DNA of 64,000 nucleotides from Amoebophrya sp. A120 (Eukaryota > Protista > Dinoflagellata). Numbering within the stretch: position 1 is the first letter of the stretch; each line of letters begins with the position of its first letter. Shown here piece after piece: positions 35,942-64,000 of this stretch. Under the pieces are notes generated by a model. That model made no database searches. It was not told the origin of the DNA and saw nothing but the letters and a program-made list of their open reading frames with translations. Made by a program: the position numbers and the translations under genes. The stretch lies in the NCBI GenBank assembly GCA_905178155.1, contig CAJINV010000007.1, forward strand, positions 4,490,258 through 4,554,257, written 5' to 3'.

Positions 35942-36847
35942 GTGGGTTTTTTTCCAATGCGGGCAAAAATATTAAAATGCCTTGCCAAACAGGACAGAAT
36001 AGAGAGGTCGCGAGTATGAGTGTGCGAAGAGAAACTCAGACTTATTACGGTATTCAAAAATGAAATTTCAGAACATAGACCCTGAAAGATCATACAGCAA
36101 CAATCCATGATACTACGGCTCGAAAATTACAAACGCCAATAGCGCACAGATTTTTGATTTTGTACGAAAGGTTTCTACCAGATATCCAGTTTACAAAAAA
36201 ATTTCCAAATAATGTCGTCCTTCTATTTTGTCAAGTATTTCGTGCGATCGGTCGTGCGTCACGAGACTTCTTTAAACTCTAAAAGTACTACAAGCAGGCA
36301 GGATCATCCGGAATGTGATCGCGATCTGGATCTTGTTGCTGCGGTGTGTTTGTATACCAGTTCCGATCCCTGTTGAGAGCAGCTTTCTCTGCAGCTGTGT
36401 CTGTGTCATGCTTCTGAGTACAACGACGATCTCGATCATCACGCAGTACGATTACCATGTTGCCGTCAGTGTTTTCACATCAATCTAGTAGTAGATCGTA
36501 GTCTAGACGAGATCGCTGGAGGATCTTGTCGTCAGCAAGAACATTCAGCGGTACGCGAGAGTGCGAAAAGTAGTGATTCCAGTGGCTTTGCTAGAACATC
36601 AGCAGTAGATGTAGAATCAGCCTCGGGGACTCGCATTGCGTCAACTATAATGGAATGGATGTAGAACTATGACGGCGCCGGCCTGATTTCGACAACATGT
36701 TGTTATCCAATCGCCCAGCCGGAGCCAAATGCTAGCATTGCTGCACATCTAAAATGCTTGCGGAGCCAAAAAGGCATCTCAAACAACGAATGTCGATGTC
36801 TTTGTTTTCGGTGACACTTGCACTTGGAATTAGTACTCGCATTACCC

Positions 36848-38980
36848 CTACATTTTCCATCCCTTTTCCTTTTCCCTGGGACTTTTCTGGGGGCGCGCTA
36901 TTCGCGGTGAGGGTGATGGTATCGAATCCTGCTGCAGTGTCTGCATTGGCGTCCTGACGCTGTTACTCCCATTCAGCCCGCGCTTTGGCCTCCCTTCTTT
37001 CTCCAACAGCGGCCGCTCCCTTTCATCCATGACTGGTGATCTCCCACGGCCCAAATCAAGATTCACAAAAGTCGCCTTCGCCCCTATATCCGCCGGGCCT
37101 CGTCCCACAGCCCTTGGCGGCATCTCTATCACACGCCATAACGCTCGCGGCGTGCTGGTGCTGCGCTCGGTGCCCTCAGGCGTAGTTCGAAGCTGTTGTG
37201 ACCTATGATCGCTCGTCATAGCGGTAAATCGATAATCTAAATCTTGATCATGGTCCTCGTCCATGCGAAAGTTTTTCATTCTTTCCGGCACATGTTCCTT
37301 CGACAAGGTGCTTCGCCTCTCCAGGGTGAATTCCACCAGATCGATGCCAAAAAGCTGGTGCTCCGCACTCACCACAAGGTTGTCCGTGAACTTCAACAAA
37401 TAAAAAGTGAGCCCGCACGTCACCACCGCCCAAATGGTGATCGCAAAAAGCCCGATAACCTGCGCGTGAAGTAAAGCGGTGCTTGGAGGCGTATTCGCGG
37501 TTGCAGTCTTGAAGAACCCCTTTTTTTCGTCGAAAAGCCCAACCGCGAGCAGGCCCCAAATGCCACAAGCCCCGTGCACCGGAAAAGCAGCGACGGGGTC
37601 GTCGATCTCCAGTGTCAATAAAAGTACAGTAGCGAACTCCACAACGACACCTGATATGATCCCGATCACCATGCTGTCCCACAGATCCACACTGGCGCAG
37701 CCAGCGGTGATGCCAACGAGGCCGCCCAGCATGCCGTTGGCGAAGGCCGCGATGTCGAATTTTTTCACGCGAATGAAATTGACCAAGAAGCTCGACACCG
37801 TCCCAAAGGCCGCAGCGGTCGCCGTGTTGGTCGCGACGCGGGCGGCAGTCACGGCCTTCCCGTTTGTGAGTCCGTTCGTCGAGCCTGCATTGAAGCCGTA
37901 CCACCCGAACCAGAGGATGAAGCTGCCCACACAGATGTAAAGCATGTTTGTGGGGGCGAAGTCATCAACTTCTGTTGGTGGTGGTTGCACTGTGGTCGTG
38001 AGAGCACGGCTACTTCTAGAGGAGATAGAGATTTGACTTGCAGCATGATCACGTCTTTGACTATTACTCCCACCTACACCTCCTCTGATTTTTCTTTGGA
38101 GGAGCTCCTGACCTAGACTATGGTCTGCCGGTCTAGTACTTGATGAATTAGCATTGTCCAGCACGGCCGCGGAACCGTTCGACGGAAAGAACCGTCCGTG
38201 CCTTGGTCCGCACGCAACTGCGCCAACCAAGGCCGCAAACCCGCCGAACATGTGCACGATTCCGCTTCCCGCAAAGTCCGTGAACCCGATCTGTTTCAGC
38301 CAGCCGCCGCCCCACGTCCAGTGAACCACCGTCGGGTAGAACAGCAAGGTTAGCAAAAACGAGATCGCGGCAAAGCCCTGCAGCTTGCACCGTTCCGCGA
38401 CTCCGCCGGACACTATGGTTGCCGCAGTGGCGCAAAAGGTGTACTGGAAGAAAAAATCCGTGTAGGAGCCCCCATGTTGCTCGAAATCCTGGCTGGAGGG
38501 GAGGAAAAGAGTGCTGCCGAAAAACCCGGTTAGGGTCATTGATGTCGTCGGAGGTGAGACTGAAGCACCTCCTGCAGTGCTGCGCTGCGATCCAAAGTCG
38601 TACTCTTCCCCAAACGCGATGCCGTACCCGAGCAGATACCACGCGATCCCGGCCATGGCGGCGTCAATCAGGTTCTTCATCAGAATGGACTGAATGTTGC
38701 GTTTCTTCACGAACCCGGCTTCGAGAAACGTGAACCCCGCTTGCATGGTGAACACCAAAGCACCGCAGAGGATTATCCAGCCGGTATCGACCGCGAAGGC
38801 GAGGTCGGTTAGTTGGTGTTCTAGTTGTACGGGAGCACCAACGATCATGGGGCTGTTGAGCTGCTGCTGTAACGTGCTGTCGGGAGTGGTCGCCGTCGCC
38901 TGAATGTCTACCGCAGGTGATGCGGCTTCTGTGCTGGGCAAGCTAGCCATTGATGCCATATGGGCTGCTGCCAAACCCAT
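36848..38980 (-). CDS. AMT1: Ammonium transporter (Amt/Mep/Rh family, AMT1-like)
   Basis: MQAGFTFLEAG, FQYTFCATAATIVSGGVAER, DFAGSGIVHM, LWFGWYGFNAGS, IDDPVAAFPVHG. Confidence 0.95.
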   Translation of the reverse strand: MGLAAAHMASMASLPSTEAASPAVDIQATATTPDSTLQQQLNSPMIVGAPVQLEHQLTDLAFAVDTGWIILCGALVFTMQAGFTFLEAGFVKKRNIQSILMKNLIDAAMAGIAWYLLGYGIAFGEEYDFGSQRSTAGGASVSPPTTSMTLTGFFGSTLFLPSSQDFEQHGGSYTDFFFQYTFCATAATIVSGGVAERCKLQGFAAISFLLTLLFYPTVVHWTWGGGWLKQIGFTDFAGSGIVHMFGGFAALVGAVACGPRHGRFFPSNGSAAVLDNANSSSTRPADHSLGQELLQRKIRGGVGGSNSQRRDHAASQISISSRSSRALTTTVQPPPTEVDDFAPTNMLYICVGSFILWFGWYGFNAGSTNGLTNGKAVTAARVATNTATAAAFGTVSSFLVNFIRVKKFDIAAFANGMLGGLVGITAGCASVDLWDSMVIGIISGVVVEFATVLLLTLEIDDPVAAFPVHGACGIWGLLAVGLFDEKKGFFKTATANTPPSTALLHAQVIGLFAITIWAVVTCGLTFYLLKFTDNLVVSAEHQLFGIDLVEFTLERRSTLSKEHVPERMKNFRMDEDHDQDLDYRFTAMTSDHRSQQLRTTPEGTERSTSTPRALWRVIEMPPRAVGRGPADIGAKATFVNLDLGRGRSPVMDERERPLLEKEGRPKRGLNGSNSVRTPMQTLQQDSIPSPSPRIARPQKSPREKEKGWKM

Positions 38981-39870
38981 CTTTGGTGTGGGAGAACAGA
39001 TATTCGAAATGGAGGGCGGTGATCCTCTCTTCAGATAAAATGTTTATCTTGGTCGCAAAATTGGACGTTATAATTTTGCGGGCGCGCCCGGCAGGGATAG
39101 CTCATTTATTACCGTGTAAAATTCTTCTCGGTCCAATTCCGAAAGAAGTCCTGTGGAAAATGTAGAGCGACACCGACAATAGAGACAGCAGCATCTTCGT
39201 GATGTAAGATTACGATTACGATTCGTGACAATCGCATCCGACCTCGAGGAGAGAGGAATCACAACACCACCAAAATTAATAACACTGCGAAGACAATGTC
39301 GTGGATACTTCGACCTGCTTCTTCTTTTATGACCGAGCTTCGCTTTTTTTTCTCAAAGGCATCCTTTACAAAAATGGGCAATGACAGACCAGGATCGCAT
39401 CAATCACGACCGAATGTCAGCATTCTGCTCAACCCAGACATGAGTCGCACCATCACCGATCAATATCGATAGCCGACAAAGATGGACATGATCTTAACGC
39501 TATCACAGCCGAAATTGCTAAGTGAACAACAGAATATCACATCGACAACATGACTCATGGCAAACATTTTTTTGTGGAATTTATCAGATGAGGATGAGCA
39601 CAGCCCCAGGACTAGCAGAATAGCGGAAGCAAAAACTACTGGATCTAAGCCATGAGCTCGGTTTCGTAGTGGGGAAAGCGAAAGCTACGAATGGGTACTG
39701 AATAACAGCCGTTTTCTAGTTGATCTCTGACTCTGGGGGAGATGAGGAGCTTGCATAGAGTTATAGCTATCGCGGCTAAGAACTAGTAGGGAGCATGGCA
39801 CAAAAAGAAAAATTGGGAATTCGAACGCAGACTTCCTTTATGAAAATTTGCTTAGCCACCTCCAACCCAC

Positions 39871-44529: not shown

Positions 44530-47187
44530 CTATCCTTGCGCGTTGACTGCGTCAATCAAGAAGGGCGAGATTTTGTCCGCCGTCTTCCGCAGTGTGTCGA
44601 TCACCATCAAGTTGCATTTCAAGAAAGTTTCCTTCTTGTATTCAAGGCCGTGCTTCTTGCAGAACGGCAGAATTTTCTCGTCGCGAAGTCTGCGGAGGTT
44701 ATGTCTGGGGACGCGAGGAATCAGATGGTGCACCGCTTGGAACTGGAGGCCGCCGTGGAACCAATCCATGTAGGATGGACAGTCTGTAGTTTTGTAGTTT
44801 GTACACGTTTTTGCTTTGATGTTATTGTATCCATTAAAAATTGCATTTACTTTTCAATATTATGAACACGACTTTTGTCAGCAACACAAAAAATCTACAA
44901 AGTCTTATACCAACGTCGATGGTTCCCTGGAGTTGCAGCTGGATGAAGTTCAGCTTGTCGTTCCCGAGCGGGTTCCCGTCCACGACCGGGCAGGGGAAGT
45001 GGGAGATGGTGATTTGCACGTGCAGCAAGCCCGCGACGGCGTGGGATAGCAGTAGAAACGCCACCCGTTCGCCCATGGTCGGGAGCTGCGCGACGAGCAG
45101 CGAGAACCAGGCCCAGAAGAACCCGAGACACGCGAGTTCCTTGGCCCGTGACTTACCGCCCCACCGCCGAAAAACGGGGTAGGGGGCGAAACACAGGATC
45201 AGGGACTGTGCGTAGAGGTTGAACCTGATATTAAAGTTGGGATTTCATGTTTGCTGGGTTTGTTCATGAGACAGGATACAGTTACAGTTGCAGATGGCAG
45301 CTGTTGAAAACAATCATAGAAATATTGATACTCAGCACAGGCTCCTGCTGTACCATAAATAAATGCAGATGCAAGGTAAAAAAGAGAAAGGCGTTCATAC
45401 CTTGCCAGCGCCAGGATCGGGTAGTAGAGGATGTGCTGGTACTGCAGCAGCGTCTGGGTGACCTTGTCGAAGTGGAGGGTTTTCATGTGGTACTCGGAGA
45501 AAATGTTGTTGAAGTATTTCTCCTATCAAATGTAAAAATGTCTGGGTCTGGAAGAGTGCCAGACTTGTCATGCATATTTTGTATCATGATTGATGCCTCT
45601 AATCCATGATCTAGCAACACAGATTTTTAGAGGGCTTCCTAATGCCTATTCCGCATGAGAAATGCCCTCTCCGCGTAACACAAACTGGACCCCTCTTGCT
45701 GGTCATGCAATACAGACTTTTTTTAGAATGCAGAGACAGTATCACAAGTTGCAATCATCCAGACCCAGACATTTTTGCAATGCATATCTCCGTGACCGCG
45801 AACACGGGCAGATGCTGGATATCCGGGTCGTACTCCACCGAGTTGGTTACCAGGTGGTGGACGTTGTGGGTGGCCTTCCACCAGCCACCGGAAATTCCGG
45901 ACATGGCGTTACCCCAGAAGAGGCTGTGTTAGAGTGTTTTTTTGTGATGGTAAAATTCTCGCTTCATTTGTCATCTTTACGCGCAGCAAAATATATCGTC
46001 ACGAAAGTCCTCGACAACTTCGTTTATCGGTTTCAAAGAAAAGCTCGTAAAGAAGTAGAAAAGTATGAAAATAAATCTTTTTTATCAATACCCGAGGCAC
46101 TCATCCACGAACAAAGAGTGTGAGACGCCGTTGTGCCCGGTGTCGTGGCCGATGAAGGCGACCTGCTGGAAATAGCAGCCGAGGATATCAAATGCAAAAG
46201 TGTCTGGGTCTGGAAGAGTCATGCTGTTTTGTGCATGACACAGAAGGTCTGGCATGGAAGCTCTAGCATTACAGGTTTCGAGAAGCTTCCGCAATGCCGA
46301 ATCCGCATGACAAATCCCCCACTTTGGTGGCAGAAAGCGGGCAGCTTTTGCTACCCACGCATGAGAGATTTTTCTGTTTTCTGAAATGCGCATCACAAGT
46401 TTGCACTCTTCCAGACCCAGACATTTTTGCAATCCATAGAGGAGCACCGCGGACAAAATCGTCCTGATGTAGTAGTTCTCGGTCCCGTAGACCACACAGG
46501 CGACGCTGCTGAAGAGCAACAGAAAGTATCTCAGCTGCACGCCGAGGTAGAACCACTTGTCAGCTTCGAACCAGGTCTTGTCCTTCTGGATGTCTTCCAC
46601 CATGGTGGCGAATTCCGTTTCCATCTTGCTAGCCTCCGTGTCCACGTAACCTACGAGGAAGCGTTTCAGAAGGGGAGCGACGACTTCCTCTCGGTGGTTG
46701 CCCAGGAAGGAAATCTGTGAATTTGTGGTGTTTTTTTTTTTTGTAAGGAGAACTGGAAAGAATAGGTGCTGAAATTGAATGATGCAGAACATAACCGGCT
46801 GCAATTTTGTTCGCAATGACAAAAGAAGAGCTGTGGTGCTTCCCTACGCGCCTGCACATGAGATGAAAGTATATATTGCAGTCGAAGGTAAAAAGTAGCT
46901 TGATGTTATACCGTGATATCCGACCCCCTTCCGTCTCGGAGCAGAATTTCGCCCCCGGGGTGCTGCATCATGGCCCATTTTTCTGGCACTTTGTACACCT
47001 GCTTCTTGATGATAAACAAATAGTCGCCATCGGTTTTTGCCTTCTGGGCCACCTCTTCCCTAGTGTACAGACGGTAGTTGGTCGGTCGCGCTCCTGCCGT
47101 CACCCCTCGTCTGCTGGTGCTGGCGGTCGCGTGCTCTTCAGGCACCAGCGGCACCACACTAGGGCCCCGAGGCTCGTGGATACACAT
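44530..47187 (-). CDS. Cytochrome-b5-fused front-end desaturase (delta-6 fatty acid / delta-8 sphingolipid type), 7 exons
   Basis: HPGG haem motif, HDTGH, WWKATHNVHH, DPDIQHLP and DWFHGGLQFQAVHHL boxes. Four GT-AG introns plus two introners. Confidence 0.93.
45524..45786. mobile_element. Introner, family C (263 bp)
   Basis: TIR tatcaaatgtaaaaatgtctgggtctgga vs rc tatgcattgcaaaaatgtctgggtctgga. TSD tctcc on both sides. Removal gives LPVFAVTEKYFNNIFSEYH. Confidence 0.92.
46186..46438. mobile_element. Introner, family C (253 bp)
   Basis: ~34-bp imperfect TIR. TSD gagga on both sides. Removal gives SAVLLGCYFQQVAFIGHDTGH. Confidence 0.93.
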
Positions 47188-50903: not shown

Positions 50904-53900
50904 TCAGGAATCTGCATCCCAGATTTCCCTTTTGAATCTGGGGAGGGGCAGGGGCGGGGATTTTTCCTCACAATATCGGAGCATGGACGAGGACTCTGGA
51001 GCCACGTCTCTGCGCCTTCCTTGGCTGTCCCGGTCCCGCACATCAGCGGCTTCTTGCTGGTCTCGTTGACCACCACCAGCAGCTGCCCCAGATTTTTTTT
51101 TTTCAGGACCGTCGCTACCAGAAGCGAGATCTTTGCTCCCCATTCTCGACGAAGTGGATGGGCCCTGCTTGTAGTTGTGCGCCGGCCACAGCAGCTGATG
51201 CACACGACCTGCTCGTGAAGTTGGTACAACTGGAGTGCCGGTAGTGTCGCTGCAAGTGACGACCATTGCGTTGAATGAATCGAGCAGGAGGTGCAGAAAG
51301 ACAGAAAGGACGGAGTGGTGTTGGTCCAGAAAAAAGTTCAGATCCGAAGTGACCTGCACCTGGTTAGAAACAATGTCAGCAGGAGCAGGAGCAGCTGCGC
51401 TGGTCCTCGAAGTCGTGCCATTAGAAGTTGGACTGGCGGAGGTTGGTAGGCCTCCTGAAGCTGATAGTCCAGAAGCAGCTTGTTCTACTGGTGCACAACT
51501 TCCCACAGGAGCCCGCCCGCCCCGGAGCCCGGCACCTCCTACCGAGCTACCTTGTTCATCTCCAGCCTGGGCAGCAGTCGCCGCTTGCTGGGTCCTCGTT
51601 GTTCTAGGTACGAAATTTTGTTCGTTGCCCGTCGTGGTTGTCAAGAAGGACAGGAAACCCTGCACGAAGGCATTCGCGTGTCCGGGTTGGTAATTGGAAT
51701 TCCGCGAACCGTACGCCTGATGATACACATCGTTGAAGGCCCCGGACCATAACTGCGTGAGGCCGTAAACCAGGCATAACGCCTGCGAAGCCTGGTTTGG
51801 GGTGCGGGTCGTGCGGGAACTCTGGCTGGAGTAGTTGTCCCAGAAACGAATGATACGGGCCAGCTCGCCCTGGCGGTTTCTTGCCAAGTCAAACACGAGC
51901 TCTGCGATGACAACGCTTGCGTGCTCTTTGTCCTCGTACGCGTCTTCGATCAGGAGAAGCTCCTTGAAGTAACTACCGTCCTCTGGGATGCTCGCACCGT
52001 CGAACATGTCCAAAGCCTCTTTCCAAGCGGTGTGTTGCGCCGCGGTCACAAAACCGACTTCCTGGACAGCCATGCGGAAGCTTCGGATCATGAGCGCAAA
52101 GGGAGTGCTCCCATCTCGATCCCGATCGGCACGCTTCAAAATGTTGGGATTAATACTTTTGAGCTGCTCGTCATGGAGACGTCGAGGCGGGTCGCTGTAG
52201 CTGGTGCCAGAAGAAGATGACAGGACGGAGGCGAAGGAATGACTACGACCCAGGTGCTGGTGACGCTGCACCCCAATCGCCAGACTGACGAGAGGTCTGC
52301 TGGTGTGCTGATACCGTCCGGCGGTAGAACTAGTTGAGTTACTGCTGCTCCTCCGCCCGGCGCTCGGGACGCTACCGGGCCTCCCGCGGGGCCCCTCTTG
52401 GTCCGACCAGTACGTGTGCTCGAAATTTTGATTATCGGCACTAGGATTTGTCGCTTTTCCCTGCTGCTGCAGCACTTCCAGGACAACTTTCGCAAATTTA
52501 ACCCGGTGCTCGAAGCCACAGGTGGCCTCGTCAAAGATCAGCCACGGGTACTTATCCTCAGCCAGGCGTGAGTGCTGGTATTGTTCTTCATCTTGCTCGG
52601 TAAAATTCAGAATATCCTCCGCTGTTCCACCTTGGTTATCAACGTCCGAGCTCGCATTTCTAGTCCTCGCTTCAAATTCGTCATCCAGCGTAAAGTGCAA
52701 ATACTGCTGACTGCCAAAGATGATGTGCAGTAAGTTACCGTGGTACTCAGCTTCTTCAGACTTCTGAGGGTAATTATCCTCGTCCCGGGGTAATAAAGGT
52801 AAAGCTGTTCGTGCTTCCGCTTCATTATTCGCCAAAAAGGGATCCAGAATCAGTGACGGCTTGAGTTGCAGCAGAATTCGTAGCATCTCCGGATCTAACT
52901 CTGCGCACGTGTAGCTACCGGAAGGACGACCGTTTTGCAGAAGCTGCTCGCCCTCGTAGAAAGAACCTTCCGATGCAGAATCGGACGAAATGGAAATAAA
53001 ACTGCCCAGCGCGCTGCGTGTAGTACTTGGATCATGTTGGTGCAACTCCTGGTCCGCTTCAGGTTCAGACGGCTGAGCCGCTTCCGCAGCATGAAACTGC
53101 TCGACTTGCACGGCATGCTGTTCATGATATTCCTCCGCAGCAGACGCTAGCTGCACACGAGCAGACACTGCCCACGGAAGATCTCGATCCTCCTCGTGGT
53201 GTCGTTCTATCTGCCTGCTTGGGAACACCGGCGCGGGCACTCCTGGAGGTGGAGAAAATACACACGGCTGCTGCACTAAAGGGTCATCCATCACAACTTC
53301 ATCTTCGCCTATGACAGGCGTCGCGCTGCGCGGCGGTCCCAGTATTCCGGTTCGAAGGGAGGCGTCCAACCAACGGCAACGCTGGGGAACAGCTCCTGCT
53401 GGAACGGAATCTGTATCTGAAGCGGGTGGCACTACTGCCCCCGCTGCCAACCGTACTAAAGGTGTGCAAAGCGTTGGCCCGTCCGTGGGTGGCGGGGACG
53501 AGGAGGTCGCACTCGTCGGGATCATCGGAATCATTGGCCTGCCGGTGTGAGGGACGCTTAGATATGTACTATCGTGGGCGCCGGAAGACGATGAGGAAGG
53601 AGAACGACGCGCGGCCGAGGGAGGTACTACCGGAGGACTTGTAAAACTTTCATGACACGGTATCGGCAGTGCCAGGGCGTCAAGAATGTGAGGTCCGGCA
53701 CGACTGCCGGACGCTCCGCCTAAACAAGCTGCAGTATCGCTGCGAGCTGGAGCAGGGGCTAGCAGAACTTGCTGCCGCTCAGCCGCGGTGCCGTGAATCT
53801 CCCCGCTCAGAACGAGTCTCTCGAATGCCTTGCTCAAAGCCCCTTCTGCAGCTTCGCCCTCTCGGTGTCCATATTCAGAGCTGGCGCAGCTCTCTTCATC

Positions 53901-56900
53901 ATTCTCGGACGAGTAAACGCCGCCGCCTCTGTCGTCCACAAGCTGTGGTGCGCTAGCAGTGCTTCGTGACACGATGAGGCCAGGATGTAGGTCGTGAATG
54001 TTGACCCTTTCTTGTTTATTCTGCTTGTGAAGGAGACGAGCCTTGTCAAGTAGATGAGCACGTCTCAGAAGATCTTGCCGCTGCGCCGCGTCTTGTGGCC
54101 GCGGGGGACCTGCGATCGGTTCAAAGGTTTCTTCTTGGTAGTGGTACTGGAAACCACTCGCTGTCGCTGCATTTCGACGGTGAAAACGAGAAGCGCTTCT
54201 TTCCTCCTGCTGCTCGCCGACAGAAGTCGTTGTTCCGAAAGCCAATCCACCCGCCGAGAAGGGCAGGGCATTAGCACTGTCAGCTTCCTCTTCTTCATCA
54301 CTTGGAGCTGGACCGGAATCGTCTTCATCGTCATCAAACAGCGTATCGAGTAGTGCACCCGCCAATGGATCTTCGGGAATACCTGGATCGCCGCTGACAT
54401 GAACATGATACTCTTCCTGCATCAGGGGATGTTCCGCTCTAGTAGCCGCGTACTGGTGACCAGCAGGCGCAAGACCACTACCGACTTGCACCGTGGCATT
54501 GGCGGTTTTCAGTTTTTCCAGGAGGGTTGTATTTCCCTTGATCTGGTGCTTCCAAAAGGAATCATCTTCACGAGTCGCAGGAACTATAACAGCTCCTGCT
54601 CCTGTGCCGCTGTCCACAGAAGACCGTCTAGAGTCTGCGGGCGATTCGCTCGGTGATACGGACAGAGTCTTTTGCTTTTCCCAAAGCAAGCTCCCTCTCT
54701 CTGATATCGCGTCCACTTCGGGAGATGACACAGTCCGGGAGGACCTCGGTCCGGCCGCGGCGTGGCTCTCGGTGTGCCAGGCGCCGAAGAGGTAAAACAG
54801 CTCCGGCTTCAGAAAGCTCGGCGTCTGCAGATCTGCGAACGTAACGTGGTGAATGCCCGCGTAGTCCAGCATCTCCATTTCGAAGACTCGCAGGGATTTT
54901 TCCGGGAGGTCCTGCAGGTGCAGTTTCGGCAAAATCCAGTGCTTCAGCAAGTGCAAATGCTCGTCAATGATGTTGGTCAGCAGTGCGGTCTTAAACGTCA
55001 GGGTGCCGTTGGAGAGGTGGATCTGCTGTTCTTGCTGAGCTCGCAAATCCGCAATGTGCTTCAGCGACTTTCGCAACACCGCTTGCAGCTCGGAGTGCGC
55101 GAGCCAGTCGTCCTCGGTCGGCACCGCGGAAAGAAGGATGCTCACCATTTCACTATCGTTCTGCAAGATCGCGTATTCGAGAAGGTTGTTCTGGATGAAA
55201 AGCTCGGCGTTAGTACTATTTGCAGCAGCAGCTCTTACCGATCGGCCTTGTAGCTTTCGAGAACCTGCTGGTGTCTCTTTCGATTTCTCTCTTGTAGAAG
55301 TTCCCTCCTTCTGGTGCTCTGCATGCAGTGGTCCATCCACAATGTCTGGCAGGGCCGATAAGTCGGCGCCTGTAACATTATTTCTGGTCACAATCGGCGC
55401 GCGCTTCGGGTTAAACAAGTCCGCCCCGTGCGCTAGACAGGCCTTGACGGCACTCCTGTTTCTGAATTTCACGGAGATGCCCAGAATGTCGTCGTGCGGA
55501 AGCTGGCGCGCGCCCGTGGCGTCGGGTGGAAACTTGTTTTCACGAAGGTGATAGATGACGGACCGAAGCCAGACTTCCTGCTTGACGTGCGGAAGGGCCA
55601 CGGAATTGCTGAAGCTGACAGTCGGTATTTTTGCGGGACGGGTTTGGTGTCTCTGCCGGAGTCCTCCGGGAGTCCCAACGACACCGTCAAGGTCGGTACC
55701 GGCATCTTCTTCACTGTCACTATCACTCTCGTCCGAGATGTCGGCCTTCGCAGCTGCCGCCGCGGCCGCAGCTGTTCTCGCCCTGCGTGCGACAATATCT
55801 GCTGTCGCCGGTGGTTCTTCTGTGGACGATGACAGCTCCGCTTCACTAGAAGTGCCAGCTATCAATGCTGGCATTGCCAGGAGATAGCGCGTATCTAACA
55901 TGAGCCCTGCTCTTTCCTGTTCGTGCTGGGCATCTATGATCTTTTCCACAATTTCAAAAGACAAACAGAATCTGCGCTTCTGATGCGGTTCCGGCCTGAT
56001 TGTTTCGGGACGATTTTCTGTACTGGGCTCTGTATCTGTTCCTTTTCTCTCCGGTGCAGCGAAAAGGGCCAAAATTGGAAGGTCGTACACATAGGGAACT
56101 CCGTTCTCCCAGGAAGTAGGAACAAAAGCAGGATCCTTCGTAGTCGCTGTGCTGCGGCCGACGTTTCGGGGAGCGTTGGCGGGAGCAGATGGCGACGATG
56201 ACAAAACGAACGCCTCTTTTTCCAAAACCTTCCAGAACTCGGTTTCGGGCCAGCTCATGCGCATTTTTGTAAAGATCGCGTGCGTCGTGGCGTAGTCGAT
56301 TTCTTCGATGTCGCCTTGATCCTCTTCAAGCGGCGCCGCCTGGGTAACATCCCAGCCAAAGTCCATCTCCTGTCGCCTGCTTTCTTGCCTTGCGCACTCC
56401 TCAGCCAGTTTCAGCTGCACTAACCGCATAAATTGCCAAATTGGTGTGAAAGCCGGCAGAAGATTTATTTCGAAGGTTAGAGCCGTAGTTCCACAGGGTC
56501 CGTAGTATTGATCATCAAGATCATCGTCCGCGCTATCTTCATCCCGAGACGAGACCGAAGGCCAAGCCGATGACGAGGACTTGTGAAATAATTCTTCCTG
56601 CCCAAGGAGCTTTGCCTTAATTTCAACCGTAAACAGCTCTGGCAGTTGGTCATTCATTTTTCCATGCCGCACTTCCTGCTGTTGCTGTCGTCCAGGGATT
56701 GCAGCTCCCGCACCGTAGTGCCCCGTTCCTGTATTGGCTACGGTCGGCTCGATTAATGGATTTGTCGTTCCAGCAGTAGGAGACGCTGTGCCCGTGCGCT
56801 GGGCGGACGATGAACTACCAGCGTCGTCTACTACTATCGTTTCACTTCTACTTGCTGCAGACCCAGACCCCGGAGTGGAATCGCTTTGCTGGTGCGCTCG

Positions 56901-58250: not shown

Positions 58251-59428
58251 TTTCGTCGCAAGTAAGGAAAAGCAGCTGGCAGCTCTGGTAGAAAAATGTC
58301 AGCCTTTGCTGAAGCCGTGTGGTGGCCCAAAAAAAATTCCGATATTGAAAATCATACACTTCGTTTTACAGTAGTAAGTTGGTTGATCATTGGGCATGTA
58401 GTTACGTACAATTAGAATTTAGTTGTTACAAGATGACGCTTATATATATCTACAGTGATGTCGGCGACACGAAAAAATCTTCAGAATTGAGAGTGATGCT
58501 ATAGCAGCACCTCCCTCATAGACGTGGGAAGCTGATTGATGTTGTTTTTTAGATAAAATTATGAGTATTCGGCTCCACTACTACTTCTAGTTCTATTGGA
58601 GCTACATCAAGCCTCAGTCGCTTTCTTGGCGGTAAGAGTAAAGTATTACTTCTAAAAGATCAACCAGGCGGAGCACGGTCTCGTGGTCACACTTTCATTC
58701 TGAATCCTCTAGCCTCTTGATATCGTCGATCAGCCTCCACCACGGATCATGTTTCATGTTCCAGGAACTCGTTTCAGGAGCGCAAAGAAAGGATCCTGTC
58801 GCGCAGTGGCGCTGGTGATCTCCTTAAGCGACCACGTTGTCCATTGCAAATGCGAAGATCTTACAGTTACAGCTGCTAATAAAGCAGGTCGACACACAGG
58901 GTATCTGATCTTCTTCGACATGATCTTCTTCCCGAAGCAAGTTGAAGTTGTAAATCAATGCGGATGAAGATAAACCTTCTTCCTAAAGATGCCCTTCTAC
59001 TGGTACTGCTGCATCTGACCCTTTGTTTCATGATCGTTACCAGCGCTCCCCGGTGCTACCGTGGCAATTGCAGCCGTCCAAGATCCTCTTATCGGCGTGG
59101 TCACTGGCGTTGTAAGTTTTGGAACACGATAAAATCGCTGCGCGCAGCGTTAACGATAGGCTCTATCGTCCGTACAAGCCGGCGCACAGCAGCCAATATC
59201 GGCTGCTTGTTTGAGAAAAATAAGCTCAAGTTCATTTCTCCTACGGATAACGATGAGTTTAGATGAAATGGAGAGCGTAGTTGAGGAGTTCCAGAGATCA
59301 ACCTTCACCTCAAAAGTTGTTCGTTTAGAAGTGTCGCTTTGAATATGGTAATGTCATGAACTGAGACCTGTGTAGAAGTGTAGTACTACTTACAACGTGC
59401 TCATCTTTTAGAAGCACGGTAGCCAGCA

Positions 59429-62400
59429 TCATCGACCAGCACCACTAAGTACCGCCGTGCTAGTACCACCAGCAGCTCCACTCGTTTTCGTGATGTCTTG
59501 CCCGTTGATTTCGAACTTCGCGTAGAACACCTTCGCAGCCGCCACCGGCGATTTCACAAAGAGCAGTTGCACGCCAGCCAGCGTTAAGCCGACGAAGTCG
59601 GTCTCCTTCCGGTGAAAGAAAAACGCGTTGTGTTCTCTCAGAATCGATAATAGCGTCGTTTCGGCGGGCACCTTGAAGTACCGTTTCCAGTCGTCGAAGC
59701 AGTGCTTCAGCTTGTCGATATTGGTCGCCTGGTGAAGGATTTTATTCGCACATGATGAAGCGGCTGAGTTTTTATCTTTTGCGCCGCGGATAGATGCGTT
59801 GTAGTGCGCAATGTTGGGGTTTACGTGAGTGTTCGTGTTGTGAAGAAAAGATGAAAAATTGTTCTGTGTGCAGAGCAGAGTGGTGGAGTTTATCATCGAG
59901 GCTTGGTTCTTCGCGATCACCATGGCAAGCTTCTGCAGCAGGGTCAGTCGTATTTTCCCGAACCGGTCCAGGATGTCCTGGCGCATCGCCTGGAGCAGGG
60001 GCAGGGGACAGACCTGTTTTTCGTTTGTATGATGTAAATTTGGATTCTTCGATGAAGATCATTTTGATTCTATGCTAACGGAAACGCAAACGGCCACTGC
60101 TAGTATACACGACAGCAATTGCATGCGCGGGAAAAAATGCAACGGTGACGCGACGAGGACATCGAATGCGAGACTTCTATAAGACTGCAAGGATGTAGAA
60201 TTTGCATTTCCGATGATCACTCGGTGTTCTGCTTCTGCACCACCACCAGATGAGAATTTATCTTCTTATAGTACCTCCGCTGCCCGATCTTGGTTCTTCC
60301 GGGCAATCTCTTCGTCCGCTAAGGTTTTGAATTCCACCACCGTTGCGTGATTGTCCGGTAGGTTGTAATTTTTCGCCTTCCCCTCCAGTTCGCCCAGCCA
60401 GTCGATCCTTCGGATTTTCTTGTGCAGCTCCGCACAGAGAAAGGGGCACATTTTCTGCAGTTTCGGGTCGTCTTTTACGGAATGGAGGTAGGCGTGGCCC
60501 AGACAGGGGATGGTCGAAACCCCCTCGTTGGTCAAATGTAATTTCCGCACGTCATCCTCGTACTGGTAGAAGAGCGCCAAATCGTCCATCTTGTTCCTAC
60601 TCGCCCCGCCATAGGTGGACAGAGTAAGCGCATCGGCCCCTAACGGGAAGTTGTCGTTGTCTTCTGAATCGCTGGAGTGCGGGCGAGTGAGGAGGTTAAT
60701 ATTGTTCGTCGAGCTCGGAAAAATTCCCCCACTTGATGTACTAGCTGCCAACAAAGGTGATGAGGATTTCTTCCCGCCCTTGCTCCCACCTTCTTCCCGC
60801 AACCCGGGAATCAGAAACCGCTTCTGCTCAGGGAGGTTCTTGTTCTTTTCCGAACTGCCATACGCAATTCCTCCGAGGACAGCAGCTTGCTTGTGGTCCT
60901 CGTCCTCTTGAAACAAATCCGCGTAGATGTCGTCCACCTCTTCTTCTTCCCCACTGCCTGTTGCGGCGCTGGTGCCGGAGTTCCGGTTCGATGAGTTATT
61001 TCTGTTTAATATTCCCCTAGATGACGAGAAATCCTTCGTCACCTGGTCCAGCATCCAGGGGTTCGCTCTCAGAAGATTTCGCCTGCACTTTTCCGCTAAA
61101 CCAATCACGTCCACTTCGACGATCTCGCTGTTATTATTCTCGTCCGCCGGAGTTGTGCTTTTAAAGCTGTACTTGAGCACGACGAAAAACTCCGGGTAGT
61201 AGAGACAGATGTCCTTCTATCGAACAAAAAAAGTGTTTACAGTTACACATTTGTTGTCAATTCAGCAACACAAATTTCTCTGCATGAGGGAGAAAACTTG
61301 CAATGCAGAAATCCTACGGGAAAATACCTATGAAAGGACGCTTCGATGCATAATATCCGGCATGACAGAGCTTGTCTGTCTTGCTTGGCCTGCAACACAA
61401 TGTGTAACTGTAACACTTTTTTCTTGTGATACCTTCAATGTTTTCTTCCGCCAGCCCTTGATCTTCATTTTCATCTGCTTCAGGTTCCACGCGTCCTCTT
61501 CGGAAAGTTGGTTTTCCAAGTTTTGCAAATCCAGGAACAACCCCGGACAATCGAAGAAGATCAATTTCACCAAATGGAGAAGGAAAACCATCTTCTCCAA
61601 CTGCGGGCGGATCAGCAGCGGTGGTAGATTCTCGTAGATGCGGAATTTCTGCAGCGCCTGGTGCTTCCGCTGCTCAAACGTCGCTTGCGTCGGCGGCTTC
61701 TCGCCGGTCAAGGCGACAATCTGCAGCATGCTGGTGTTGATGTTCGGGTCGATAAAAGGCTTCGGCGAAGCTGCGGGCATTTGCATACTAGCATTGGCAC
61801 CAGCTGTAGTTGCCGCACCAGAGTTTGTGCGGTGGAAAACTTGTGCAGCTGCTGCAACTTCTCCGAAAGCGCCGCTGGGAACTACAGTGTGTTTTTGCTT
61901 GTTCAGCATCCTCCTGCCTGCTGTAATTCCCATAGAATCGTCGCTGTCCACGTCGAATTCGTTGACATCTAGCAATCTGGACTGCGAAGTACTAGGATTG
62001 TTCGCCCCAACCGGGTGCAGAACCGGCGCACCCAGCGTCGTGATGAACTCGCGTTTTCGTTGCCGCTCCTGTTCCTCTTGCAGTTTGCGGGCTGCGGTCC
62101 GCGGGGAAAGGAACTCTGGCTGGTGATGTTCTTCGACGTCCATTTTGGATGAGTCCCGATTGATGTTTATTTCCAGTTCGTCTTCGTCAAACTCGTCCCG
62201 ATCGTGATCAAACGCCTCCATGATCTTGTTCCGACTTGTACTAAAACTAGTTCCAGCGTTTAAACCAACCGACGGATTTACAACTTTGTGTGGGGGATGC
62301 AGCTCAGGAGGAGGAATATTAACTCCACCCCCAAGAACAGCAGCTGTACCAAGAGCGCCACCCTTGTTTATTCCGCTTGTAATTCTACTTCCCTTGTTGT

Positions 62401-64000
62401 TCACCACGTTCGTTGCACCTCCAGTGTGTTCGCCTTCCATGTCGCTGAAAACCGGTAAACCGGGCGGCGCGGGGAACTTCTCACCCGCAATGATGATGGG
62501 GACCGCCGGGGCTTGCGGGATTTTTTTCCCTTTCTTCGAAGTAACGATTTGTGGATGTTGTTCCAGGTCCTCGTCCATAATTTCTTGTGCACTTATTGGC
62601 GGTTTTTTCGGCAGTATCGGCCCGAATTGATTTGCCTCGGTGATGCAAGGAGTCATGTAAGAACTGGAAGCTCTTCCGATCATCGCCTGATCCTGCTCCT
62701 GCCCCTTCACCACCCCGAAATGTTCAAACAGCGGCTTGTTGAGCATCCTTTTTTCCCGGATCCTCTCGTCGTAATCCTCGCTGCTGTCACTCGGCACGAT
62801 CCCCTGCTCTCGTCTCGCTTCGCGTCGCTGCTGCTTCGCGCGTTGCTGGCGCTTTTCGCCCTTCGTGAGCTTCTTGTTCACGATGTTGCAGTCCGGGTTC
62901 TTCTCCGACCAAAACTTCTCCATTTTGCGATTATGCATTGCAAAAATGTCTGGGTCTGGAAGAATGCAAAGTTGTCATACTAAATCCGAATCATGCAAAA
63001 ATATGTGTTGCATGAGTGCCAAAAGCTGTCCACTTTTGACCAAGATAGTAGTAGTAGTACCATTTAACTCCTGGCGGGTGGGCGTTAGAACAGATTTAGC
63101 CTCTGCCAATACCTGGGCGTTAGAACAGATTTAGCCTCTGCCGATGCCACTTTTGACCAAGATGGAAGGGAGTTTCTCATGCAGGACAGGCATGGCAGAG
63201 ACCTCGCAGAGTCTGTCATGCTAAGGCCCGCATTCCAGACCTCATGGGTCATGGAAAATCTGCATGACAAGTTTACACTCTTCCAGACCCAGACATTTTT
63301 GCACTGCATAGCGATGCCACTGCGCCGATTTGTCGTTGCTGTTCGGGTCCCACCCGACGGTCACGATGTATGGAGTTCTCAAATGTTACATTCTCAACTG
63401 TTACATGAATCTGTAATGCAAAAATGGCAAATGTGAAAGGAGTGGAGGAAGATTGCGCCTTTTGCATTACAAGTTTGGCGCAGATTTAGATGCTGTTTAG
63501 CCCTTTCGAAATTTGTCATGCGAAGCAGCTCGATCATCTGCCGGCTTAAGGTACTTTTGCATGACAAATTCATGCAACAGTTGAGAGTGTAACGTTTGAG
63601 AACGCCATACGATGGTCCGCCCGCGCTTCGTCACTTTCACGCTCGTTTGGTTCACGCGGTGATCCTCTTCCTCATCGAACTCATTTGCAGCTCCTTTGAG
63701 ATTTTTCGGCGGCTTCCATCGATAAATGATATGCGGCTCGTCTTCCTTTTTATTCTTACCACGCCCTTTCTTACTCGACGTCTGCTCCGTCGTGGGATCA
63801 TTCATGGTTCCTCCAACGGCACCATTGGTACCAGCACCGTCCTTGGCGGCGGCGTTTTGCTCAGTTTTTGGCGCGGCTGGCACAGTGATCCAGGCCCCGT
63901 CTTCGTCATAGTAGCCGTCCTCCTCCTCATAGTCGTCTCCGTATTCATCCTTGTAATTGTGCCCGTCCTCGTAGTACTCGTTGTAATCACCTGGGTCGTG
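59429..64000 (-). CDS. Large unknown protein, 5' end outside the window; exons >64000-63610, 63363-63311, 62926-61433, 61213-60275, 60013-59429
   Basis: ORFs join in frame after removing three introners and GT-AG intron 60014-60274 (RGRTIVTVGWD, QWHRKMEKF, TLKDICLYYPEF, AAEVCPLP). Confidence 0.75.
61218..61431. mobile_element. Introner, family B (214 bp), inverted relative to 9356-9566
   Basis: TIR tatc...aaaaaagtgtt(t)acagttacacatt. TSD ccttc on both sides. Removal restores the frame, and the TSD supplies a GT-AG register. Confidence 0.92.
62932..63310. mobile_element. Introner, family C (379 bp, with nested insertion), inverted relative to 46186-46438
   Basis: ~32-bp near-perfect TIR tatgcaKtgcaaaaatgtctgggtctggaaga. 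TSD gcgat on both sides. Removal restores the frame. Confidence 0.92.
63047..63146 (-). mobile_element. 100-bp nested insertion flanked by a 17-bp duplication, with a (TAC)n tail; possible truncated non-LTR retroelement
   Basis: ccacttttgaccaagat at 63030-63046 and 63147-63163. (agt)4 at one end. Internal 29-bp repeat at 63079-63107 and 63114-63142. Absent from sister copies. Confidence 0.6.
63369..63609. mobile_element. Introner, family D (241 bp)
   Basis: ~55-bp imperfect TIR tatggMgttctcaaaYgttacaYtctcaactgttRcatgaat. TSD cgatg on both sides. Removal gives GRTIVTVGW. Confidence 0.92.

What the first reader, a model, noticed from the sequence alone, without database searches (positions are those of the whole stretch)
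46181..46443. Intron in a conserved desaturase with neither GT nor AG in any frame-restoring register
Seen: the minus strand reads C[TCCTC]TATGG...TGATA[TCCTC]GGC. Possible end pairs are TC/TA, CC/AT, CT/TC, TC/CC, CT/CT and TA/TC. Precise removal yields SAVLLGCYFQQVAFIGHDTGH. Known: this matches front-end desaturase spacing before His-box 1, so homology fixes the junction. An 86-aa insertion in this membrane helix is implausible. This is the cleanest test case for non-canonical excision in the window.
Basis: partly seen in the sequence, partly recalled or inferred. Interest (0 to 1): 0.8.

Follow-up and report, generated by a model that had tools for sequence, protein, structure and literature searches.

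The report
Known Amoebophrya introner element in desaturase
A 253-base transposon-like element with inverted-repeat ends and a 5-base target duplication sits inside a coding exon of a desaturase gene of the parasite Amoebophrya sp. A120 and is likely cut out of the RNA without normal splice signals; this kind of intron was published for this very genome in 2021, so the case is real but ordinary there.

Summary
On the minus strand two TCCTC copies (46439-46443, 46181-46185) flank a 253-nt element (46186-46438). All six 258-nt removals give one product, and none has GT-AG, GC-AG or AT-AC ends.

The window is Amoebophrya sp. A120. The deposited 487-aa protein P0001 is rebuilt exactly by seven exons, four GT-AG introns and two non-canonical removals.

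The "intron" is a MITE-like introner element. It has 34-nt terminal inverted repeats, begins TAT + 7 nt + AAAAA, carries a 5-bp target-site duplication and is predicted to fold as a long hairpin (z -6.9). A sister copy splits exon 3 and a third lies at 62932-63310.

Farhat et al. 2021 (PMC7789003) describe this class for A120: 29,850 repeated introns, 3-5 nt direct repeats, TAT-type inverted repeats, no U1 snRNA found, mechanism unknown.

I got no direct RNA reads for this junction. Both read-laying runs left the unique parts uncovered.

One correction to the title: frame-keeping GT-AG pairs do exist nearby (GT 46447, AG 46166), but they would delete eight conserved residues and the deposited model does not use them.

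This scan has already noted the same kind of intron on other DNA, in Prorocentrum and other protists.

Verdict: already known, low interest.

The parts
44530..47187 (-). Cytochrome-b5-fused (front-end type) fatty-acid desaturase gene, 487 codons plus stop. Exons: 47187-46912, 46714-46444, 46185-46092, 45923-45792, 45523-45401, 45224-44911, 44783-44530. Four GT-AG introns of 197, 168, 176 and 127 nt, and two non-canonical introns of 258 and 268 nt.
   Evidence: Joining these exons translates exactly to P0001. P0001 is named Amoebophrya sp. A120 by its source. Pfam finds Cyt-b5 at residues 42-116 and FA_desaturase at 179-454. HPGG is at residue 76, HDTGH at 196, HNVHH at 233 and QAVHH at 419.
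46186..46438 (-). Element A, the finding: a 253-nt introner element (MITE-like) inside exon 2. On the minus strand it begins TATGGATTGCAAAAA and ends TGATA.
   Evidence: Similarity to other copies in the DNA run stops exactly at 46186 and 46438 (loose ends and joints).
46405..46438 (-). 5' terminal inverted repeat arm of element A (34 nt).
   Evidence: Pair I7, 88% complementary. It pairs from the first element base in the predicted fold.
46186..46219 (-). 3' terminal inverted repeat arm of element A (34 nt).
46439..46443 (-). Upstream copy of the 5-nt direct repeat TCCTC, read as a target-site duplication.
46181..46185 (-). Downstream copy of the 5-nt direct repeat TCCTC.
45524..45786 (-). 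Element B: a 263-nt sister copy of the same family, in the same orientation, inside exon 3. It is flanked by GGAGA at 45787-45791 and 45519-45523. The removal is 268 nt. If retained it gives an in-frame stop 10 codons in.
   Evidence: (fold z -4.09).
62932..63310 (+). Element C: a 379-nt copy of the same family with an internal duplication. It is flanked by GCGAT at 62927-62931 and 63311-63315. It lies inverted relative to A and B with respect to the minus-strand gene block.
   Evidence: fold z -9.46.
61218..61431 (-). Element E: a 214-nt introner element of another family, beginning TATC, flanked by CCTTC (plus-strand reading). The deposited protein P0009 lacks the element plus one repeat copy.
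   Evidence: P0009 holds KIKGWRKKTLKDICLYYPEFF; fold z -4.63.
63369..63609 (-). Element D: a 241-nt introner element of a third family with 56-nt arms, flanked by CGATG (plus-strand reading). It lies 58 nt from element C.
   Evidence: fold z -10.31.

Best explanation
The 258-nt interruption is a non-autonomous, terminal-inverted-repeat 'introner element' of Amoebophrya sp. A120 that sits in exon 2 of a cytochrome-b5-fused desaturase gene between two copies of a 5-bp target-site duplication, and it is likely transcribed with the gene and then removed from the RNA together with one copy of the duplication.

Shown here:
- The element, its 34-nt arms, the 5-nt repeats and its family copies.
- The deposited protein lacks exactly element plus one repeat copy.

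Predicted:
- In the RNA the two arms pair from the first to the last element base into a long hairpin. That would set the two TCCTC copies, and so the two exon ends, side by side.

Inferred:
- Removal happens in vivo at the RNA level.
- Removal is guided by this structure rather than by GT/AG.

The catalyst is unknown. My best guess is the organism's own spliceosome, for which the genome paper found no U1 snRNA (about 0.5). A spliceosome-independent cut-and-ligate route like the one suspected for euglenid nonconventional introns is the main alternative (about 0.3).
For: Identity of the locus:
- P0001 is 100% identical to the exon query and is named Amoebophrya sp. A120.
- The seven-exon model with two non-canonical removals reproduces P0001 exactly.

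Element anatomy:
- 34-nt arms, 88% complementary.
- 5-nt repeats directly abut TAT...ATA.
- All 8 distinct TAT...ATA elements in the window have a 5-nt flanking repeat, 6 perfect and 2 matching at 4 of 5.
- 0 such structures in 20 shuffles.

Hairpin: z is -6.86 for A, -4.09 for B, -9.46 for C, -4.63 for E and -10.31 for D. No shuffle folds as well in any of the five.

Family: the arm core gives 6 hits against 0.37 expected. 7,336 contigs of the DNA-like run X1 lie on the two elements.

Removal is needed for function:
- Retained B, C, D and E each bring in-frame stops.
- The protein after site B is 76-78% identical to orthologs P0002 and P0003. That is no lower than the 60-66% seen before site A.
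- No homolog has the insert.

Published match (PMC7789003, sections 10, 11, 16 and 25 read; supplement legends seen):
- More than 60% of A120 introns are non-canonical.
- Introner elements have inverted repeats plus 3-5 nt direct repeats.
- A120 inverted repeats start TAT, then seven less-conserved bases, then at least three As. Element A starts TATGGATTGCAAAAA.
- Gene models were built from transcripts.
Against: - I have no RNA read or contig across 46444|46180 from my own calls. In some searches the RNA-labelled runs covered only the repeated element parts, and the tool warns that such holes prove nothing.
- So for this junction the RNA-level removal rests on a deposited gene model and on conservation.
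- Element A has no in-frame stop and is 86 codons long, so a retained form would still be translatable.
- A hairpin flanked by short direct repeats is also the classic setting for reverse-transcriptase template switching. The genome paper's main text does not mention this (0 occurrences of 'template switch', 'artifact', 'artefact' or 'reverse transcript').
- Frame-keeping GT-AG pairs lie nearby.
Confidence: 0.88

Rival explanations
1. The apparent excision is a reverse-transcription artefact. The enzyme would jump across the stable hairpin between the two TCCTC copies, so cDNA and the transcript-based gene model lack the element while the real mRNA keeps it.
For: The geometry (a long hairpin, z -6.86, flanked by 5-nt direct repeats) is the textbook setting for template switching. 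That is my recollection, and from the papers PMC2923612 and PMC10275267 I saw only the search listing. The genome paper's main text does not discuss it.
Against: - If elements stayed in the mRNA, element B would stop this protein 10 codons into the element, before the third His box.
- Yet the part after B is 76-78% identical to orthologs, with all motifs intact.
- Elements C, D and E also carry in-frame stops.
- The paper counts 29,850 such introns in A120 (section 11). A proteome broken on that scale is not credible.
- The artefact could still inflate apparent splicing efficiency.
Confidence: 0.04
2. A conventional GT-AG intron is used instead: GT at 46447 with AG at 46166 (282 nt) or 46163 (285 nt). 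This would remove the element plus 8-9 flanking codons.
For: Both pairs keep the frame and introduce no stop. The gene's four other introns are GT-AG.
Against: - The deposited protein does not use them.
- They would delete VLLGCYFQ from the hydrophobic stretch before His box 1. That stretch is ungapped in 25 of 28 metagenome relatives and is not shortened in the 6 aligned proteins that reach this stretch.
- The gene's four GT-AG introns all start GTAT and end CAG. The candidate donor reads GTGC.
Confidence: 0.03
3. Element A is retained and translated as an 86-residue in-frame insertion, as the main product or as a regular isoform.
For: The removal length is 258 nt, which is 86 codons, with no in-frame stop.
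Against: - The insert falls 11 residues before HDTGH, inside a hydrophobic stretch (Kyte-Doolittle peak 1.57 at residue 186).
- It has 20 charged residues and a mean hydropathy of -0.07.
- It matches no Pfam family.
- No relative has an insert there.
- The sister element B cannot be retained because it carries stops.
Confidence: 0.03
4. The element is cut out of the DNA (transposon excision or programmed elimination as in ciliates), or the gene is a dead copy hit by two insertions.
For: A terminal-inverted-repeat element with a target-site duplication is by nature a DNA-level mobile element. Removing element plus one duplication copy equals restoring the empty site.
Against: - In the DNA-like run X1 a 451-nt contig runs from element B through exon 3, the GT-AG intron and exon 2b into element A (45760-46210). 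Its depth is 40.2, equal to neighbouring single-copy sequence at 43.7. No empty-site joint is among those listed. Contigs can hide rare variants, though.
- The organism is not a ciliate, and the gene also has ordinary 127-197 nt GT-AG introns.
- Against a dead gene: 487 codons are intact and the sequence after B is well conserved.
Confidence: 0.02

Closest known systems
Introner elements (IE-type non-canonical introns) of Amoebophrya sp. A120 and A25, Farhat et al. 2021, BMC Biol 19:1 (PMC7789003)
   Same: Same genome. The ends are non-GT-AG. Inverted repeats sit at both ends, and short direct repeats overlap the exon borders (5 bp in the paper's Fig. S19 legend). The A120-type inverted repeat starts TAT + 7 nt + A-run. 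The family is repeated. The host gene also has canonical introns, which the paper calls a 'heterogeneous gene'.
   Different: Nothing of substance. The arms here are 34 nt, longer than the 8-20 nt motif the paper searched with. This particular desaturase gene is not mentioned in the main text (0 occurrences of 'desaturase').
Nonconventional introns of euglenids (review passages in PMC11282704; abstracts of PMC3935182 and PMC6221363 in the listing)
   Same: The borders are non-canonical, the ends are brought together by base pairing, and TSD-like repeats make the exact cut ambiguous. A MITE origin is suspected and the excision machinery is unknown.
   Different: The lineage is different (Euglenozoa). 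Euglenid introns pair through short motifs, usually CAG/CTG at +4..+6 and -8..-6 according to the review, which are not present here. They are known to leave as full-length circles after the conventional introns, and that has not been examined for Amoebophrya.
Canonical-splice introners of Micromonas, Aureococcus and Polarella (as cited in PMC7789003 section 16, PMC9860276 and PMC12130899)
   Same: They are transposon-derived introns with target-site duplications and often terminal inverted repeats, and they spread through genes in large numbers.
   Different: Those elements provide or recruit GT/GC-AG sites and are spliced conventionally. Here no register of the supported junction has such ends.
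MITE-derived non-canonical introns of the tunicate Fritillaria borealis (as described in PMC7789003 section 16 and PMC11282704)
   Same: Non-canonical introns thought to come from MITEs, in an organism that still has a spliceosome.
   Different: Fritillaria introns share a preferred pattern (AG-A(N) according to PMC7789003). In the Amoebophrya elements in this window the flanking repeats differ from copy to copy (TCCTC, GGAGA and others). So at most one end of any register is constant.

Membership tests
Amoebophrya A120 introner elements (Farhat et al. 2021) | Lies in the A120 genome | tested here: met
   P0001 and P0009 are 100% identical to window exons and are named Amoebophrya sp. A120 by their source. 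P0001 is rebuilt exactly from the window.
Amoebophrya A120 introner elements (Farhat et al. 2021) | Intron ends differ from GT-AG | tested here: met
   The six registers have ends TC/TA, CC/AT, CT/TC, TC/CC, CT/CT and TA/TC.
Amoebophrya A120 introner elements (Farhat et al. 2021) | Inverted repeats at the two intron ends that can form a hairpin | tested here: met
   34-nt arms, 88% complementary. Fold z is -6.86, and 0 of 100 shuffles fold as well.
Amoebophrya A120 introner elements (Farhat et al. 2021) | Direct repeats of 3-5 nt overlapping the exon/intron borders | tested here: met
   TCCTC at 46439-46443 and 46181-46185.
Amoebophrya A120 introner elements (Farhat et al. 2021) | A120 inverted-repeat signature: TAT, seven less-conserved bases, then at least three As | tested here: met
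   Element A starts TATGGATTGCAAAAA. B and C start TATGCATTGCAAAAA.
Amoebophrya A120 introner elements (Farhat et al. 2021) | Junction validated by RNA-seq (at least 3 reads in the paper) | tested here: inconclusive
   Searches gave no coverage of the unique parts in any RNA-labelled run, and the tool says such holes prove nothing. The only indirect support is the transcript-based deposited model.
Non-autonomous TIR DNA transposon (MITE) | Terminal inverted repeats, a target-site duplication of fixed length, small size without coding capacity, and many copies | tested here: met
   All 8 distinct elements in the window have a 5-nt flanking repeat, 6 perfect and 2 at 4/5. Element A is 253 nt. 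The 86-residue read-through matches no Pfam family. 7,336 X1 contigs lie on elements A and B.
Non-autonomous TIR DNA transposon (MITE) | A cognate autonomous element with a transposase that recognises these ends | not testable with these tools
   No whole genome is held for this window. The Pfam scan of 14 large ORFs between 34 and 58 kb found no transposase. PMC7789003 reports no transposase in A120, while PMC12130899 assigns A120 introners to diverse TE classes (passages).
Euglenid nonconventional introns | Short pairing motifs, usually CAG/CTG at +4..+6 and -8..-6, in a euglenozoan host | tested here: not met
   Positions +4..+6 read TCT in the first register and GGA in the last, not CAG. 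The host is a syndinian dinoflagellate. It may work like these introns but is not a member.
Canonical-splice introners (Micromonas/Aureococcus type) | GT/GC-AG splice sites supplied by the element or its target duplication | tested here: not met
   No register of the supported junction has such ends.
Ciliate-type internal eliminated sequences | Absent from the expressed (somatic) DNA | tested here: not met
   The X1 contig 45760-46210 runs from exon sequence into both elements at single-copy depth, 40.2 against 43.7. Contigs show presence only, so rare excision is not excluded.
Front-end (cytochrome-b5-fused) desaturases | N-terminal Cyt-b5 domain with HPGG, three His boxes, and a third box that starts with Q (criterion recalled, not from a call) | tested here: met
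   Pfam finds Cyt-b5 at 42-116 and FA_desaturase at 179-454. HPGG is at 76, HDTGH at 196, HNVHH at 233 and QAVHH at 419. Regiospecificity (delta-4, -5, -6 or -8) cannot be told from sequence here.

The most novel reading that the evidence does not exclude
Removal of these elements does not depend on any directional splice signal. It is a symmetric, hairpin-guided cut-and-join at the base of the inverted-repeat stem that works in either orientation and does not need the spliceosome.

The lead in this window is element C. It is a copy of the same family as A and B, but it lies inverted relative to its minus-strand host. Taking out C and its neighbour D, each with one repeat copy, opens one continuous minus-strand frame from the window end at 64000 down to at least 62400, the limit of the join, where it runs in the stop-free frame 61328-62974.

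Neither the main text nor the supplement legends of the genome paper discuss element orientation. All hits for 'orientation' there concern gene orientation.
Probability: 0.25. Interest if true: 0.7.

Novelty: already known. Interest (0 to 1): 0.15.

Why it matters
As a finding it adds one more worked example to about 30,000 published ones.

The class itself matters for three reasons:
- It shows that a eukaryote can remove transposon insertions precisely from coding RNA without GT-AG.
- Standard gene finders misread such genes.
- Its enzymology is still open.

Searches returned no paper that resolves the mechanism.

This gene is a convenient test bed. It carries four ordinary GT-AG introns and two introner elements side by side in a well-conserved enzyme. 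One of the elements (A) would stay in frame if retained. The other (B) would not.

Tried and rejected
1. Direct RNA test. laid runs X12, X13, X3 and X1. laid X4, X5, X6 and X14.
   - No RNA-labelled run showed any depth on the unique exon or intron parts.
   - X13 and X14 laid nothing at all.
   - X12 gave 93 reads, all on one arm of element B with foreign flanks.
   - No joints were reported.
   - The tool states that a filter leaves records out and that a hole proves nothing, so this is no test either way.

2. Share of sampled words. X3-X6 hold 0.54-0.56 and X1/X2 hold 0.91. My rough sum is about 0.44 for coding exons alone and up to about 0.53 with the untranslated ends. So the RNA-run share fits mature mRNA, but it cannot separate it from retention of one element. 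I dropped it as evidence.

3. A120 transcript fragments in the protein collection (shorter proteins, residues 120-290). There were 3 hits at 73, 57 and 52% identity, none from A120.

4. Metagenome contigs encoding relatives. Of 38 loci the best is 50% identical. None is an A120 cDNA or an empty-site allele. I used them only for spacing.

5. The annotated protein across elements C and D. P0009 starts at an internal Met downstream of C, so it does not test C or D.

6. Whole-genome search. No genome is held for this window.

7. Rfam over the window gave 0 matches.

8. 'Longest open frame across the junction' was uninformative. GC-rich sequence is open in several frames; for B the best frame was antisense.

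9. My first guesses, before identification, were euglenid nonconventional introns and ciliate eliminated sequences. One search showed the organism is Amoebophrya.

10. Dating the insertion from arm mismatches was rejected. A and B share the same arm asymmetry, so the mismatches are inherited from the source copy.

11. Earlier notes of this scan for this genome: none.
Full report
**What is there.** On the minus strand exon 2 of a gene reads ...GTGC TCCTC | TATGGATTGCAAAAATG ... TTTTGCATTTGATA | TCCTC GGC...
- The upstream TCCTC is 46443-46439.
- The element is 46438-46186 (253 nt).
- The downstream TCCTC is 46185-46181.
- Sliding a 258-nt removal through the repeat gives six registers, with ends TC/TA, CC/AT, CT/TC, TC/CC, CT/CT and TA/TC. 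All six give one product. The neighbouring bases allow no further register.

**Which organism and gene.** A protein search with the read-through exon returned P0001 (487 aa). It is 100% identical and its source names it 'unnamed protein product [Amoebophrya sp. A120]'.

Joining exons 47187-46912, 46714-46444, 46185-46092, 45923-45792, 45523-45401, 45224-44911 and 44783-44530 translates to P0001 letter for letter. The gene has six introns:
- Four are GT-AG, of 197, 168, 176 and 127 nt. All start GTAT and end CAG.
- Two are non-canonical, of 258 and 268 nt.

P0001 has a Cyt-b5 domain at residues 42-116 and an FA_desaturase domain at 179-454. HPGG is at residue 76 and the His boxes are HDTGH 196, HNVHH 233 and QAVHH 419. 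That fits a front-end desaturase by the criteria I recall. Its regiospecificity cannot be told here.

**What the 'intron' is.** Its ends are 34-nt inverted repeats, 88% complementary. A second copy, aligned, lies in exon 3 at 45524-45786 and is flanked by GGAGA on both sides. A third lies at 62932-63310 and is flanked by GCGAT.

A scan for TAT...ATA elements with complementary ends finds 8 distinct elements in the window.
- Six have a perfect 5-nt flanking repeat and two match at 4 of 5.
- Two other pairs in that list were set aside. One is a cross-pair between elements B and A. The other is a weak 14/20 pair at 15798-15903 with no repeat.
- Twenty shuffles of the window give none.

So this is a miniature terminal-inverted-repeat transposon with a 5-bp target-site duplication. 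Removing the element plus one duplication copy restores the pre-insertion coding sequence.

As RNA, elements A, B, C, E and D fold into long hairpins with z of -6.86, -4.09, -9.46, -4.63 and -10.31. No shuffle folds as well in any of the five. In A the stem starts at the first element base, so the two repeat copies sit at its foot.

**Is it removed?**
- The deposited proteins lack element A and element B (P0001) and element E at 61218-61431 (P0009). In each case exactly element plus one repeat copy is missing.
- The genome paper says its gene models were built from transcript alignments because of the non-canonical sites. It also says the protein-based step assumed canonical sites (PMC7789003, section 25). 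I infer that these junctions come from transcripts.
- If retained, B, C, D and E bring in-frame stops.
- The desaturase after site B is 76-78% identical to orthologs P0002 and P0003. That is no lower than the 60-66% before site A.
- All 7 other aligned proteins lack the 86-residue block.
- Of 38 metagenome loci, 28 have a match crossing residues 178-200. Of these, 25 are ungapped and 3 have 2-5 extra residues.

My own attempts at RNA reads failed. In some searches no RNA-labelled run covered any unique part of the stretch, and the tool warns that this proves nothing. RNA-level removal at this junction is thus well supported but inferred.

At the DNA level, a 451-nt contig of run X1 runs from exon sequence into both elements (45760-46210). 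Its depth is 40.2, against 43.7 for the neighbouring single-copy contig. The element is therefore in the DNA.

**A correction.** Canonical frame-keeping alternatives exist. One search lists 128 stop-free GT-AG, GC-AG or AT-AC pairs within 90 nt of the borders.
- The nearest is GT 46447 with AG 46166 (282 nt).
- It would delete eight residues (VLLGCYFQ) of the hydrophobic stretch before His box 1. The Kyte-Doolittle peak there is 1.57 at residue 186.
- The deposited model does not use it.

**Comparison with what is known.** Farhat et al. 2021 (PMC7789003) describe this class in this genome. I read the abstract and sections 10, 11, 12, 16, 25 and 32, further passages, and the supplement legends. 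They report:
- More than 60% of A120 introns are non-canonical, with no preferred dinucleotides.
- A subset, the 'introner elements', has inverted repeats at the ends and 3-5 nt direct repeats over the borders. The Fig. S19 legend reads 'direct repeats of 5 bp'.
- A120 inverted repeats start TAT, then seven less-conserved bases, then at least three As.
- 29,850 repeated introns make up 17% of the assembly.
- U1 snRNA was not found, and the mechanism is open.

Element A meets every sequence criterion.

Later papers treat A120 introners as transposons of diverse classes (PMC12130899, passages). They also place them beside euglenid and Fritillaria non-canonical introns (PMC11282704, passages). 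None of the papers returned resolves the enzymology.

This scan has already reported hairpin-bounded non-canonical introns in Prorocentrum and other protists, each naming the Amoebophrya paper as the closest known. I did not test those notes.

**Mechanism and rivals.** My best reading is transcription through the element, arm pairing that brings the exon ends together, and removal of the element plus one repeat copy. The catalyst is unknown.

Rivals:
- A reverse-transcriptase template-switching artefact. The geometry invites it, and the paper's main text is silent on it. But it would leave thousands of genes broken.
- Use of the nearby GT-AG pair.
- Retention of A as an in-frame insert.
- DNA-level excision, or a dead gene.

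Each is given a few percent at most.

**Verdict.** The phenomenon is already published for this very genome. Interest as a new finding is low.

The one lead beyond the paper's text is orientation. Element C belongs to the same family as A and B but lies inverted relative to its minus-strand host. Removing C and D opens a single long frame. If C is truly removed from the RNA, the signal is symmetric, which favours structure-guided recognition. I could not test this.

Noticed in passing
window 45524-45786 (minus strand), repeats at 45787-45791 and 45519-45523: A second copy of the same element family splits exon 3 of the same desaturase gene. It is flanked by GGAGA. The removal is 268 nt and retention gives a stop after 10 codons. 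This makes it a stricter test case than the one flagged.
   Followed up: yes
window 62927-63614: Two introner elements of different families, C (62932-63310) and D (63369-63609), lie 58 nt apart. Removing each with one repeat copy opens one minus-strand frame from the window end at 64000 into the long frame 61328-62974. That implies a micro-exon of about 53 nt between the two elements. The deposited model P0009 starts at an internal Met downstream and may be cut short at its 5' end.
   Followed up: partly
window 62932-63310 versus 46186-46438 and 45524-45786: By its internal sequence element C is inverted relative to A and B, although all three sit in minus-strand genes. A aligned to C on the plus strand gives 119 matches, against 54 on the minus strand. 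B gives 104 against 17. This would mean orientation-independent removal if C is spliced.
   Followed up: partly
window, the 8 TAT...ATA elements (1246-1567, 9029-9307, 9356-9566, 45524-45786, 46186-46438, 61218-61431, 62932-63310, 63369-63609): Six of the eight removal lengths are divisible by three (327, 216, 258, 219, 384, 246; not 284 or 268). The binomial P is about 0.02 against one third. Only element A is also free of in-frame stops. The sample is small and copies of one family share lengths.
   Followed up: partly
window 45524-45555 (run X12): 93 raw RNA reads carry this arm of the family, with one foreign flank on each side. So at least one other copy of the element is present unremoved in RNA of the same species label.
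   Followed up: no
window 63080-63143: Element C holds an internal tandem duplication: a 28-nt unit at 63080-63107 and again at 63116-63143. A second repeated stretch (ccacttttgaccaagat) occurs at about 63030 and 63148. This explains why C is longer than A and B.
   Followed up: no
P0006, a 259-aa relative from an unnamed source: This relative is 73% identical in the His-box region. It carries a low-complexity insertion of about 93 residues right after the position that matches site B. It could be a real loop insertion or an unremoved insert in another organism.
   Followed up: no
L031-L034 and L036: Five metagenome loci share a stop-containing stretch of about 52 codons between DIQHM and PIFAV, a few residues before the position of site B. 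It is probably an intron in an unknown relative.
   Followed up: no
window 17943-18006: A perfect 31-nt palindrome (arms 17943-17973 and 17976-18006, 100% complementary, 2 nt apart). It is unlike the TAT...ATA elements and remains unexplained.
   Followed up: no
window 34912-39043 and 50904-58298: The neighbours are all on the minus strand: arginyl-tRNA synthetase pieces (34912-35445, 35519-35971), an ammonium transporter (36848-39043) and an uninterrupted 2,464-codon frame with no Pfam match (50904-58298). There is no lipid-synthesis cluster and no transposase near the desaturase.
   Followed up: partly
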